Positions 1,950 to 2,977 of a stretch of 9,870 bases of DNA are shown here, in pieces. The notes below the pieces were generated by a model. That model did not search any database. It was given only the letters and a program-made list of their open reading frames with translations, and had not been told where the DNA came from. Positions within the stretch are counted from its first letter, which is position 1, and every line of letters begins with the position of its first letter. Origin of the DNA: a virus. Lineage: Duplodnaviria; Heunggongvirae; Uroviricota; Caudoviricetes. The translations under genes and the position numbers were made by a program. Location: IMG/VR virus record IMGVR_UViG_2713896780_000030, one strand, 5' to 3'.

Positions 1950-2600
1950 ATGGCCGTCAACTCAAACGGTTCAAACAATCGCGTTGCTGGGCGTGATTTT
2001 CACGAAAAGAATATTCAGATAGAGCGATATGATGGTTCTCATACCGTCAATATCGCAATCCCTTCGAATAATGATGATGACGATCGCCCTTTGCTTAAGG
2101 CTCAGCGTAAGGAGCTGAATAGCTTGGTTGCTGCTATTGCAGAAGCTAGCAATACTGAAGCGTTTATTATTTGGCAAAAAGTACATGCGGAGATTGGTGT
2201 AGCTGGTATTGATGATATGACAGTAAATCAATATAAAACAGCGGAGAGTTTTCTGCATGCAATGCTTGAGCGATGTAAAGATCATGATGCCTGTAAGGCT
2301 CTTGTAAGTTTATTACTACGTAACAGTGAAGACTGTGGACTTCGACAAAAACTTCTGCGGTATTGCCATATCAATTTCGGTACAGGACGTTTAAACGATC
2401 TTACTCGTTCTCAGTTACAGTCTGCATTGTCGTGGTTAGAGCAACAATCGGCATCAAGCCACACAGAGAGTTCGACCTTACCAGAAGTCCGACTTCGTGC
2501 TTCAGAATTAATCCGACTTTATCCAAAAGAAATAATATTCTTTATCTGCGTAGGGGTTTTGGTAGGCGGTGTCATTTCTAGGGCGTTTTTTAATTTGTAA
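1950..2600 (+). CDS. Hypothetical protein with C-terminal transmembrane anchor (216 aa)
   Basis: GGAGG RBS 5 nt upstream of the ATG. C-terminus IIFFICVGVLVGGVISRAFF is a hydrophobic helix. N-terminus shares a short motif with the C-terminus of the preceding XRE protein. Confidence 0.55.
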   Translation: MAVNSNGSNNRVAGRDFHEKNIQIERYDGSHTVNIAIPSNNDDDDRPLLKAQRKELNSLVAAIAEASNTEAFIIWQKVHAEIGVAGIDDMTVNQYKTAESFLHAMLERCKDHDACKALVSLLLRNSEDCGLRQKLLRYCHINFGTGRLNDLTRSQLQSALSWLEQQSASSHTESSTLPEVRLRASELIRLYPKEIIFFICVGVLVGGVISRAFFNL

Positions 2601-2629
2601 TCTTACTTGAGCTAAATTGAGGTAATGAT

Positions 2630-2977
2630 ATGAAAGTAAAAAAGGTTCAACTATTAGTTACTTTTTTATCTATGTTTTCTTTTTCCGCCGTCGCAATGCC
2701 TTTTAAAACTATTGAACGTGAGAGTTTCAATGGGGTATGGCCATTTAATACTGATGAGGTTCAATTACAGTGTCTTGATGGTAATCCTTATGTGATGAAT
2801 TTTGACGATAATAAGTTATATGCACTTACAGGTTTGGCTCGAATAAAAGGTAAAACATTTGGTGCGTTACCGTTAGATAACAATAATCCATTTTGGCTAG
2901 ATAATGATGCCGCCCCAGGGTTAAAAAAGAGCCTAGGGGATGTCACTAAGGCTGCATTTGATTTATGTGATAAGTAA
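2630..2977 (+). CDS. Small secreted/periplasmic protein with N-terminal signal peptide (115 aa)
   Basis: GAGG RBS upstream. N-terminus MKVKKVQLLVTFLSMFSFSAVA has a positive n-region, hydrophobic core and AxA-like cleavage context. Two cysteines could form a disulfide. AT-rich codon usage relative to neighbours. Confidence 0.55.
   Translation: MKVKKVQLLVTFLSMFSFSAVAMPFKTIERESFNGVWPFNTDEVQLQCLDGNPYVMNFDDNKLYALTGLARIKGKTFGALPLDNNNPFWLDNDAAPGLKKSLGDVTKAAFDLCDK

What the first reader, a model, noticed from the sequence alone, without database searches (positions are those of the whole stretch)
1950..2977. Two cargo genes between the repressor-like gene and the integrase: membrane-anchored 216-aa protein and signal-peptide 115-aa protein
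In P2/186-type lysogeny regions the repressor and integrase genes are normally adjacent. Here two extra genes sit between them: one with a C-terminal transmembrane helix and one with a signal peptide and two cysteines. The region is AT-rich compared with its neighbours. Genes in this position are expressed in the lysogen and are typical locations for superinfection-exclusion, abortive-infection or lysogenic-conversion functions.
Basis: inference. Interest (0 to 1): 0.45.

Follow-up and report, generated by a model that had tools for sequence, protein, structure and literature searches.

The report
Prophage repressor's membrane partner plus periplasmic cargo
Of the two genes between repressor and integrase in this P2-like E. 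coli prophage, the second is an exchangeable periplasmic cargo gene, while the first is a conserved membrane-anchored protein whose start mimics the repressor's tail and changes with it across many prophages, suggesting an undescribed link between the lysogeny switch and the cell membrane.

Summary
Both ORFs are real, conserved genes at the stated coordinates. They equal ECs2619 and ECs2618 of O157:H7 Sakai prophage Sp13.

ORF115 (2630-2977) is a YebY/DUF2511-fold periplasmic protein with a signal peptide, Trp37 and Cys48/Cys113. It sits in a slot holding at least six alternative genes in related prophages, so it is a true moron.

ORF216 (1950-2600) is not cargo. It is a C-tail-anchored protein with a cytoplasmic Flk_N domain, and it follows the repressor in every related P2-like prophage examined.

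The main result concerns its first ~20 residues (VNSNGSNNRVAGRDFHE). They match the repressor's C-terminal tail (LNISGGNNRIAGRDYNE).
- The match recurs in P2-like and Mu-like prophages with different motif variants, each matched within its own pair (0 of 100,000 permutations reach the observed score).
- It persists when another gene separates the two.
- It is kept at protein level, not DNA level.
- It also occurs on non-Flk_N membrane partners.

The motif is rich in N and G and poor in K, L and P, and lies at the C-terminus of one gene product and the N-terminus of the next. That layout is the operational signature of amyloid-signalling motif pairs.

I infer direct coupling of the repressor to a membrane partner. 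The mechanism is untested. PADLOC gave no defence hits.

The parts
1492..1520 (-). Leftward (lytic-side) promoter-like site TTGACA-17-CAAAAT. It overlaps a perfect palindrome GGTATC-N6-GATACC (about 1503-1520), a candidate repressor operator.
   Evidence: Promoter scan. The palindrome was read directly in the sequence. Its role as an operator is inferred.
1530..1934 (+). Immunity repressor, 134 aa: an XRE-type HTH domain, a helical segment and a C-terminal tail.
   Evidence: Pfam HTH_31/HTH_3. PHROG transcriptional regulator/repressor families. Annotated as 'phage repressor protein' ECs_2620 in Sakai. Homologue alignment A3.
1869..1919 (+). Repressor C-terminal tail motif, residues 114-130: LNISGGNNRIAGRDYNE.
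   Evidence: It matches the ORF216 N-terminus with BLOSUM62 local score 62, z = 9.7 against shuffles. Tails of this kind are present in most of the 120 closest repressor homologues.
1932..1949 (+). Junction TGA TAG TAG GGA GGT GAC: three in-frame stop codons followed by the Shine-Dalgarno sequence of ORF216. The two ORFs are in the same frame.
   Evidence: Sequence. The translation tool reports 3 stop codons.
1950..2600 (+). ORF216, a tail-anchored inner-membrane protein with a cytoplasmic Flk_N domain (= ECs_2619).
   Evidence: PHROG 5825, E 4e-103. NCBIfam Flk, E 8.6e-16. Pfam PF27202 Flk_N on homologues. hhalign against Flk: probability 97.4%, E 1.5e-11. AF2 model.
1956..2006 (+). ORF216 N-terminal motif, residues 3-19: VNSNGSNNRVAGRDFHE. 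It is the counterpart of the repressor tail.
   Evidence: The region is disordered in the AF2 monomer model (pLDDT below 50 for residues 1-40).
2064..2447 (+). Flk_N helical domain, residues 39-166.
2529..2588 (+). C-terminal transmembrane anchor, residues about 194-213.
   Evidence: Kyte-Doolittle 2.36. AF2 helix 192-214. The position at the extreme C-terminus is conserved in the family.
2630..2977 (+). ORF115, a YebY/DUF2511-family periplasmic protein (= ECs_2618). Signal peptide at residues 1-22 (nt 2630-2695). Cys48 at nt 2771-2773 and Cys113 at nt 2966-2968.
   Evidence: Pfam PF10709: 28.4 bits against cut-off 21. PHROG 2950, E 9e-40. PDB YebY 7n0j by sequence, E 0.0027. AF2 model against 7n0j: E 9e-4, TM 0.62/0.75; against MlbQ 2mvo: E 0.017. 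W37, C48 and C113 are invariant in the subfamily.
2983..3984 (+). P2-type tyrosine integrase, the last gene of the putative operon.
   Evidence: Pfam Int_N and Phage_integrase. PHROG integrase.
4095..4142 (+). 3' part of a tRNA gene (prophage attachment-site copy), followed by 50 masked N at 4143-4192.
   Evidence: Sequence. ARAGORN finds no complete tRNA. Related prophages sit at the tRNA cluster between pgsA and yecA.

Best explanation
The two genes are of different kinds.

(1) ORF216 is a conserved component of the lysogeny module.
- It is a C-tail-anchored inner-membrane protein, so its Flk_N helical domain and its N-terminus face the cytoplasm.
- Its first ~20 residues carry the same N/G-rich motif as the disordered C-terminal tail of the repressor encoded just upstream.
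- I propose that the two motifs pair directly. Because they are similar rather than complementary, the pairing would most simply be in-register beta-strand stacking.
- A fraction of the repressor would thereby be tethered to, or gated by, this membrane protein. Maintenance of repression (immunity, induction threshold) would then be coupled to the state of the inner membrane.
- In relatives the partner carries a periplasmic domain, which would fit a sensor role.

(2) ORF115 is an exchangeable moron. It is a Sec-exported, disulfide-stabilised YebY/MlbQ-fold periplasmic protein expressed from the same lysogenic transcript. It most likely acts as a small periplasmic binding or protective protein for the lysogen.

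Shown: homologies, topology features, conservation, variability of the slot, and motif sharing with co-variation.
Inferred: physical interaction, its beta/amyloid-like nature, the direction of signalling, and any phenotype.
For: Conserved gene versus variable slot:
- The Flk_N gene follows the repressor in Klebsiella, E. coli, Citrobacter, Erwinia, Rosenbergiella, Mixta, Izhakiella, Enterobacter, Hafnia and Serratia prophages.
- The next gene differs between them: DUF2511, a DUF8087-like protein, a BRCT-containing 288-aa protein, a 242-aa TM protein, a 198-aa exported protein, two small ORFs, or none.

Motif sharing:
- In the window pair the local score is 62 against a shuffle mean of 21 (z = 9.7). 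Nine representative pairs give z = 3.8-13.6.
- The motif is kept in Erwinia although the DUF2511 gene separates the two genes.

Co-variation:
- Distinct motif variants are each matched inside their own pair. Examples are NRVAGRDY, FHGxVGQxxAGDIxN, NGDVGNVVSGDVTI, GQFAGNQIIN, VIGDI and ENIYNI.
- In a 15x15 matrix the diagonal mean is 51 and the off-diagonal mean is 28. None of 100,000 permutations reach the diagonal sum.
- Two classes coexist in E. coli, one in the P2-like prophage (this window) and one in a Mu-like prophage present in 127 of 5426 genomes.

Reverse association: of 70 unique repressor-seeded loci, 56 have a downstream ORF whose N-terminus matches the tail at score 40 or more. 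Of these, 55 hit the Flk_N HMM and 52 have a predicted TM.

The motif also occurs on non-Flk_N membrane partners, namely a Zn-ribbon protein with 2 TM and a 2-TM protein. The constants are therefore the motif plus membrane anchoring.

Selection acts at protein level. Only 46% of identical aligned residues use the same codon, and nucleotide identity is 60%.

Motif properties: N is enriched 3.4-fold and G 2.0-fold, while K is at 0.34, L at 0.07 and P at 0.06 of background. Mean pair identity is 56% over 15-31 residues. These values compare with those reported for bacterial amyloid-signalling motifs and for the E. coli prophage Bab/Agp system.

Flk is an experimentally established tail-anchored protein.

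ORF115. The YebY paper had noted yebY homologues lying between a recombinase gene and a CI-like repressor gene.
Against: - No experiment or complex prediction supports an interaction.
- The motif (mean 18 aligned residues, rich in R/D/E in class I) is shorter and more charged than typical ~25-residue BASS motifs.
- The partners are not an NLR plus a cell-death domain.
- Similar termini could equally reflect binding of both to a third factor.
- The sampled pairs are phylogenetically related and the two genes are linked, so the permutation test overstates independence.
- The role of the well-conserved Flk_N domain (120 residues) is not explained by a simple tether model.
- About four Flk_N partners match their repressor tail only weakly (L122, L129, L135, L144).
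- One tailed repressor (L123) has no detectable partner.
- For ORF115 no ligand or phenotype is known. The AF2 model is of moderate confidence only (pLDDT 62).
Confidence: 0.4

Rival explanations
1. Tail mimicry or decoy. ORF216's N-terminus imitates the repressor tail so that both are recognised by the same third component. That component could be a phage-specific antirepressor, a satellite-encoded derepressor, a protease adaptor, or a docking site on the repressor core itself. The membrane-anchored copy would titrate or compete for that factor and so set the induction threshold.
For: This explains similarity rather than complementarity of the two termini, and it explains co-variation between phages. 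Related P2-like prophages encode a small 'Derepression' (PF25738) protein. Two motif classes coexist within one host species, which argues for a phage-specific recogniser rather than a host one.
Against: No candidate third factor was found to co-vary with the motif. Nothing explains why a decoy must be membrane-anchored in all versions.
Confidence: 0.2
2. Repressor-gated membrane effector (toxin-antitoxin-like or abortive-infection-like). The membrane protein would be a latent toxic, holin-like effector. The repressor tail would either hold it inactive or, on oligomerisation, template its assembly. Loss or inactivation of the repressor would then damage the membrane.
For: - The gene order, an HTH protein with a disordered C-terminal tail followed by its partner, is that of type II TA modules.
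- The repressor has weak MqsA and HipB-like antitoxin hits.
- Some non-Flk_N partners are small 2-TM proteins with a charged C-terminus, a holin-like layout.
- Many class I partners carry a second degenerate 'GRD(I/F)VNI' element after the first, whereas the repressor has one copy (seen by eye). This recalls the effector-with-two-repeats and sensor-with-one pattern described for HET-s/BASS.
- The E. coli prophage Bab/Agp system uses such a motif pair for abortive infection.
Against: ORF216 is produced constitutively with the repressor in roughly 10% of E. coli genomes, with no sign of toxicity. It has no similarity to known toxins, holins or Bell/Bab domains. The orientation of the motifs is the reverse of Bab/Agp, since here the membrane protein carries the motif at its N-terminus.
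Confidence: 0.15
3. Both genes are independent lysogen-expressed morons (superinfection exclusion, abortive infection or lysogenic conversion), and the motif resemblance has no mechanistic meaning for them.
For: Their position lies in the lysogenic operon. One is membrane-located and the other periplasmic. ORF115 has low GC and sits in a variable slot. Downstream cargo in a Mu-like relative includes a TIR-domain protein.
Against: ORF216 is conserved rather than variable. There are no PADLOC hits. This view leaves the co-varying motif unexplained.
Confidence: 0.1
4. ORF216 acts like chromosomal Flk. Its Flk_N domain would engage the flagellar type III export gate (FlhA/FlhB) and alter flagellar assembly or motility of the lysogen.
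For: There is true homology to the Flk N-terminal domain and the same tail-anchored topology. Flk inhibits the secretion-specificity switch and was tested against FlhA-C by two-hybrid assay.
Against: - Identity is only 22% over one domain.
- ORF216 lacks Flk's second half and its conserved MQPxSGP N-terminus.
- It scores 58 bits against the equivalog cut-off of 353.
- The family occurs in Klebsiella, which I recall to be non-flagellate (from memory), and beside non-Flk_N alternatives.
- This view does not explain the repressor-like motif.
Confidence: 0.07
5. The shared motif is a by-product of DNA-level duplication or gene conversion at the gene junction and has no function.
For: The two coding stretches are only about 40 nt apart and in the same frame in most loci.
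Against: Nucleotide identity is 60%, and only 46% of identical residues share a codon. The motif is retained when the genes are separated by another gene or by 270 nt. Both copies are conserved over wide divergence.
Confidence: 0.03

Closest known systems
[quoted passage not shown]
   Same: The N-terminal helical domain is homologous: ORF216 residues 39-166 align with Flk residues 25-152 (hhalign probability 97.4%). Both are cytoplasmic proteins held in the inner membrane by a single C-terminal TM helix.
   Different: - ORF216 is 216 aa, against about 330.
- It lacks Flk's second repeat region and its Pro-rich MQPxSGP N-terminus.
- It has a repressor-like N-terminal motif instead.
- It is encoded in a prophage lysogeny operon.
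- It falls far below the NCBIfam equivalog cut-off.
Amyloid-signalling motif pairs (fungal HET-S/NWD2; bacterial BASS1-10; E. coli prophage Bab/Agp BASS11)
   Same: A short motif is shared by the C-terminus of one protein and the N-terminus of the protein encoded by the adjacent gene. Pair identity is about 56%. The motif is enriched in N, G, Q and V and depleted in K, L and P, and it is predicted to be disordered in the monomer.
   Different: - The carriers are a phage repressor and a membrane-anchored Flk_N protein. They are not an NLR/STAND or TPR sensor and a Bell/Bab pore-forming effector.
- The motif is shorter (mean 18 aligned residues).
- No fibril, prion or templating data exist.
- It was not compared with BASS HMMs.
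YebY (E. coli AZY operon, PDB 7N0J) and MlbQ (lantibiotic self-resistance lipoprotein, PDB 2MVO): the DUF2511 family
   Same: ORF115 hits Pfam PF10709. It has a signal peptide and Trp37, and the Cys48/Cys113 pair sits at the same positions as the YebY disulfide. The predicted fold matches 7n0j and 2mvo best.
   Different: Identity to YebY is about 30%. The gene lies in a prophage lysogeny operon rather than beside yobA-yebZ. This is a small phage-specific subfamily of 18 clusters. No function is known; copper delivery and lantibiotic binding are untested for it.
Lysogen-expressed accessory genes of P2-like and Mu-like phages (P2 old/tin/fun; D3112 Tip next to repressor c; recalled from memory)
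   Same: They are genes expressed from the prophage that sit in variable positions. The slot after the Flk_N gene holds different genes in different prophages, including a TIR protein in a Mu-like relative.
   Different: The slot between the repressor module and int is not one of the P2 hotspots I can recall. Neither protein resembles those products, and there are no PADLOC hits.
Type II toxin-antitoxin modules with an HTH antitoxin
   Same: An upstream autoregulator-type HTH protein has a disordered C-terminal tail, and the partner is encoded immediately downstream.
   Different: The partner has no known toxin fold. The tail resembles the partner's terminus rather than complementing a globular toxin. 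The HTH protein is the prophage immunity repressor.

Membership tests
Pfam Flk_N (PF27202) domain family | Presence of the Flk N-terminal helical domain | tested here: met
   PF27202 is precomputed on proteins 94-98% identical to ORF216 and is named Flk_N. NCBIfam Flk gives E 8.6e-16 over residues 37-166. hhalign against a Flk alignment gives probability 97.4% and E 1.5e-11. The local Pfam copy lacks this model.
Flk (NCBIfam PRK10715 equivalog) | Full-length match above the curated cut-off (353 bits), about 330 aa with two repeat regions | tested here: not met
   ORF216 scores 58.1 bits and only profile positions 20-149 of 339 are matched. ORF216 is 216 aa. Flk-type proteins show two matched stretches and a conserved MQPxSGP start that ORF216 lacks.
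Flk (NCBIfam PRK10715 equivalog) | Control of the flagellar T3S specificity switch / FlgM secretion | not testable with these tools
   Genetics only.
Bacterial tail-anchored membrane proteins | A single TM helix at the extreme C-terminus with the bulk of the protein cytoplasmic | tested here: met
   The only hydrophobic segment is at 195-213 of 216 residues. AF2 predicts a helix at 192-214. The same layout is seen in about 200-aa homologues. Insertion and orientation were not tested.
DUF2511 / YebY (Pfam PF10709) | Profile match above the gathering threshold | tested here: met
   28.4 bits against cut-off 21, covering profile positions 2-87 of 87.
DUF2511 / YebY (Pfam PF10709) | Signal peptide, conserved Trp37 and the Cys48-Cys113 disulfide pair | tested here: met
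   W37, C48 and C113 are invariant in the phage subfamily. The positions are identical to those reported for YebY. The N-terminus is signal-peptide-like. Disulfide formation itself was not tested.
DUF2511 / YebY (Pfam PF10709) | YebY/MlbQ fold | tested here: met
   The AF2 model (pLDDT 62) has 7n0j (E 9e-4, TM 0.62/0.75) and 2mvo (E 0.017) as its top three PDB hits. The next hit has E above 1.
AZY (yobA-yebZ-yebY) copper operon | yebY encoded with CopC-like and CopD-like genes | tested here: not met
   The neighbours are the repressor, the Flk_N gene and int.
Amyloid-signalling motif pairs (BASS/ASM) | The same short motif at the C-terminus of one protein and the N-terminus of the adjacent gene's product | tested here: met
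.
Amyloid-signalling motif pairs (BASS/ASM) | About 25 residues, enriched in Q/N/G/V/I, depleted in K/P/L, pair identity about 40-56% | tested here: inconclusive
   Composition and identity fit: N 3.4x, G 2.0x, Q 1.4x, V 1.3x; K 0.34, L 0.07, P 0.06; identity 56%. The aligned length is shorter (mean 18, range 15-31), I is not enriched (0.96), and R and D are enriched. Criteria.
Amyloid-signalling motif pairs (BASS/ASM) | Carriers are an NLR/STAND-type or other immune sensor and a cell-death effector (Bell/Bab, TIR, CHAT and similar) | tested here: not met
   The carriers are an HTH repressor and a Flk_N, Zn-ribbon or 2-TM membrane protein.
Amyloid-signalling motif pairs (BASS/ASM) | Fibril formation, cross-seeding, prion-like propagation | not testable with these tools
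   This needs peptides (ThT, EM, ssNMR) or GFP-foci assays as.
Known anti-phage defence systems (PADLOC-DB 2.0) | Match to a defence protein model | tested here: not met
   No hit for ORF216 or ORF115 at E of 0.01 or below. Only weak HTH-type RmrA hits appear for the repressor.
Prophage moron / variable cargo slot | Different unrelated genes at the same position in otherwise syntenic prophages | tested here: met
   This is met for the ORF115 position, which has at least six alternatives or is empty. It is not met for ORF216, which is constant.

The most novel reading that the evidence does not exclude
A temperate-phage repressor and a membrane-anchored partner communicate by prion-like templating of a shared terminal motif. 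Clustering or conformational change of the membrane protein, caused by envelope damage, superinfection or a periplasmic signal, would nucleate an in-register beta assembly. That assembly would capture the repressor tails and give an irreversible, SOS-independent switch of the lysis-lysogeny circuit, or conversely trigger a membrane effector. Motif classes would then act as specificity codes that insulate co-resident prophages. This would extend amyloid signalling from immune cell-death pathways to transcriptional control of prophages, in a module present in about 10% of E. coli genomes, including O157:H7 Sakai and EDL933.
Probability: 0.2. Interest if true: 0.9.

Novelty: new variant of a known kind. 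Interest (0 to 1): 0.68.

Why it matters
P2-like and Mu-like prophages are very common in enteric bacteria, yet how many of them decide to leave lysogeny is poorly understood. P2 itself is not SOS-inducible (from memory).

A repressor whose tail is matched by a membrane protein encoded next to it offers a concrete, testable route by which membrane or periplasmic signals could reach the genetic switch. The matching holds across many lineages and in distinct specificity classes.

It would also be the first case, in the literature I could search, of an amyloid-signalling-type motif pair attached to a transcription factor.

The genes are easy to test. They are ECs2620 and ECs2619 of the Sakai reference strain, and short peptides suffice for first experiments.

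For annotation, the work splits 'two hypothetical cargo genes' into a conserved regulatory partner and a genuine moron of the YebY family. It also defines a variable cargo slot next to int that could be mined for new lysogen-expressed functions.

Tried and rejected
- PADLOC scan of both proteins and of the island ORFs: no defence models matched.
- PDB sequence search for ORF216: only chance TM matches.
- Foldseek of the ORF216 model against PDB: nothing with E below 0.79.
- Search for HTH-Flk_N fusion proteins ('all-in-one' architecture) among 135 family representatives: none found. The domain always starts near the N-terminus.
The read-through reference was rejected for its stop codons and the linker fusion was rejected as a foreign sequence.
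- Alignments A2 and A3 were too divergent for locus searches.
- Viral-contig scans with P0158 and P0164 found nothing.
- The genome-contig scan gave only 9 loci.
- Deposited phage genomes contain the pair only in phage 520873, in frameshifted form, plus weak Ralstonia hits. A class II partner has no match there, nor does the class III pair.
- I tested whether ORF115 is related to the periplasmic domain fused to class III partners. No similarity was found, so I dropped the idea that ORF115 is a detached sensor domain.
- Gene conversion as the source of the motif similarity was rejected on codon evidence.
- Literature searches for DUF2511 plus prophage, Flk-like/Flk_N, and amyloid signalling plus repressor found nothing directly on this module.
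Full report
**Context.** The window is the lysogeny end of a P2-like (Peduoviridae, Xuanwuvirus-like) prophage of E. coli.
- Bases 1400-4100 are 100% identical to E. coli O145 chromosomes and 97.9% identical to Escherichia phage 520873.
- The same region is prophage Sp13 of O157:H7 Sakai: ECs2620 repressor, ECs2619, ECs2618 and ECs2617 integrase.
- On the + strand lie an XRE-type repressor (1530-1934), ORF216 (1950-2600), ORF115 (2630-2977) and a tyrosine integrase (2983-3984).
- Arc-like and Cox-like genes diverge on the - strand.
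- A 3' tRNA fragment and a masked stretch follow the integrase. After that comes a different island.

**Observation.** Both ORFs exist as described.
- ORF216 has a good Shine-Dalgarno sequence and one hydrophobic helix at residues 195-213 of 216.
- ORF115 has a signal-peptide-like N-terminus and two cysteines, C48 and C113.
- Only ORF115 is markedly AT-rich (35.3% GC). ORF216 is at 41.5% and the neighbours at 44-45%.
- Both are conserved genes, belonging to clusters of 555 and 395 near-identical members. They are present in about 10% of complete E. coli genomes.
- No +-strand terminator-like site interrupts 1530-3984.

**ORF115.** This protein is a member of the YebY/DUF2511 family.
- It matches Pfam DUF2511 above threshold and PHROG 2950. 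It matches E. coli YebY (7N0J) by sequence.
- A moderate-confidence AF2 model has YebY and the lantibiotic-resistance lipoprotein MlbQ as its only meaningful PDB matches.
- Trp37, Cys48 and Cys113 are invariant in the phage subfamily. They coincide with the residues that define YebY, including its disulfide.
- The YebY paper already remarked that some yebY homologues lie between a recombinase gene and a CI-like repressor gene.

**ORF216.** This protein is a tail-anchored Flk_N-domain protein.
- It belongs to PHROG 5825, of unknown function.
- Its residues 37-166 are homologous to the N-terminal domain of Flk. The evidence is NCBIfam E 8.6e-16, Pfam Flk_N on near-identical proteins, and hhalign probability 97.4%.
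- Flk is a proven tail-anchored protein that restrains the flagellar secretion-specificity switch.
- ORF216 is not an Flk orthologue. It is shorter, lacks Flk's second half and its conserved N-terminus, and scores far below the equivalog cut-off.
- AF2 predicts a helical domain at residues 50-171, a C-terminal TM helix and a disordered N-terminal 45 residues.
- The fold has no significant solved relative.

**Conserved gene versus variable slot.** I fetched genomic contexts of ORF216 and ORF115 homologues.
- The Flk_N gene follows the repressor in all related P2-like prophages, which are integrated at the pgsA/yecA tRNA site. This holds in at least ten genera.
- The gene between it and int varies. 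Alternatives are DUF2511, a DUF8087-like acidic protein, a 288-aa BRCT-containing protein, a 242-aa TM protein, a 198-aa exported protein, two small ORFs, or nothing.
- In Erwinia the DUF2511 gene lies between the repressor and the Flk_N gene.
- ORF115 is therefore a moron in a variable slot. ORF216 is part of the conserved module.

**The shared motif.** The repressor ends ...LNISGGNNRIAGRDYNETKGR and ORF216 begins MAVNSNGSNNRVAGRDFHEKN.
- This resemblance is conserved in every P2-like pair.
- It is far above shuffled controls, with z of about 8-14.
- It persists in Erwinia although the two genes are not adjacent there.
- A profile search of 1.84 billion representatives found only 135 family members. 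The phage-type members all start with this motif or a variant of it.
- A distant member lies in a Mu-like phage contig. There the repressor tail (QQFNGPVGTVTTGDVVN) carries the same variant as the partner (QQFHGAVEQVAAGDIKN).
- Further loci gave more variants, each matched inside its own pair.
- One of these variants is in a Mu-like prophage found in 127 E. coli genomes.
- In a 15x15 matrix of class representatives the diagonal mean is 51 and the off-diagonal mean is 28. None of 100,000 permutations reach the diagonal sum.
- These pairs are related and linked, so the test overstates independence.

**Reverse test and further properties of the motif.**
- I seeded loci by repressor homology. Of 70 unique loci, 56 have a downstream ORF whose N-terminus matches the tail. 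Of those, 55 hit a Flk_N HMM and 52 have a predicted TM.
- Repressors without such a tail mostly lack the partner.
- Some partners are not Flk_N proteins but small Zn-ribbon or 2-TM membrane proteins. Many Flk_N partners are bitopic, with a 55-130-residue periplasmic domain.
- The constants are therefore the matching N-terminal motif and membrane anchoring.
- The similarity is maintained at protein level. Nucleotide identity is 60%, and only 46% of identical residues share a codon.

**Interpretation.**
- Two termini that are similar rather than complementary, and that co-vary, are what in-register beta stacking requires. This is the operational signature used to discover amyloid-signalling motifs: the C-terminus of one protein and the N-terminus of the adjacent gene's product, about 25 residues, G/N/Q-rich, K/P/L-poor, 43-56% pair identity.
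- Such a pair works in an E. coli prophage defence system, Bab/Agp.
- The present motif fits in arrangement, composition and identity. It is shorter, and its carriers are entirely different.
- I therefore propose direct coupling of the repressor tail to the cytoplasmic N-terminus of the membrane partner.
- An amyloid-like mode is an attractive but unproven version of this.
- Mimicry for a common third factor and a repressor-gated membrane effector remain serious rivals.

**Prior knowledge.** I found no paper linking a phage repressor to such a motif or describing phage Flk_N proteins in the searchable library.

**Verdict.** The 'two cargo genes' reading is half right. ORF115 is an ordinary new member of the YebY family sitting in a cargo slot. 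ORF216, together with the repressor tail, is an apparently undescribed conserved module that deserves experiments.

Noticed in passing
window 4435-9726 (and L001 22989-40591): A second mobile island lies directly downstream of the prophage attachment site. It holds a 246-aa ORF, an Arm-DNA-binding integrase fragment, an 851-aa protein with a weak protein-primed-type PolB hit (RefSeq: DNA-directed DNA polymerase), a 212-aa ORF and an integrase C-terminal fragment. In the full genome these are followed by IS3, a type I R-M system and a DUF262 protein, up to yecA. It looks like a pipolin (piPolB element). E. coli pipolins integrate at a Leu-tRNA and carry defence genes.
   Followed up: partly
window 4095-4192: The 3' portion of a tRNA gene (GGTTCAAGTCCCGC...) is followed by 50 masked N bases. 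ARAGORN finds no complete tRNA, so the attachment-site tRNA cannot be identified from the window.
   Followed up: partly
window 1248-1454: Strand conflict in public annotation. The - strand ORF is an Arc-like repressor (PHROG 3431, E 1e-28). RefSeq and Sakai instead annotate a 45-aa + strand 'hypothetical protein' (ECs_2621) over the same DNA, which is probably spurious.
   Followed up: partly
window 1492-1520: A perfect palindrome GGTATC-N6-GATACC overlaps the -35 box of the only strong promoter-like site, which is leftward (TTGACA-17-CAAAAT). It is a candidate operator for the repressor.
   Followed up: no
L002 (NC_049344, phage 520873) 6535-8576: The only deposited phage genome carrying this region has neither gene annotated, and its integrase is split in two. 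tblastn recovers both proteins in three pieces, so the record appears to be frameshifted there.
   Followed up: partly
L075 about 2501-3400: One viral contig has two tail-bearing repressor genes in tandem, an L007-type gene followed 27 nt later by a window-type gene. This suggests recombination between immunity modules.
   Followed up: no
L018 4597-5862; L074 8466-10062: In Mu-like relatives the genes after the Flk_N partner are also cargo-like. They include a lipoprotein-like 123-aa protein and a TIR_2-domain protein in one case, and a 203-aa protein and a DUF2441 protein in another, all before the lysis genes.
   Followed up: no
L135, L145, L148, L122, L144 partner proteins (C-terminal 50-90 residues): Bitopic Flk_N partners share a small periplasmic two-cysteine element (C-x-[FY]-x-G-K-x-[FY]-S-x-G ... 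C ... W). It has no Pfam match and is possibly a sensor mini-domain.
   Followed up: no
ORF216 homologues, residues about 20-40 (A1, A2): After the first motif many partners carry a second, degenerate 'xGRD(I/F)VNI(S/A)(L/I)P' element, whereas the repressor has a single copy. This was seen by eye only and not quantified.
   Followed up: no
Flk alignment A7: Chromosomal Flk proteins appear to contain two tandem copies of the first half of the Flk_N domain. There are two matched stretches in the profile search, and the consensus repeats the 'QRTxLExL...W' pattern.
   Followed up: no
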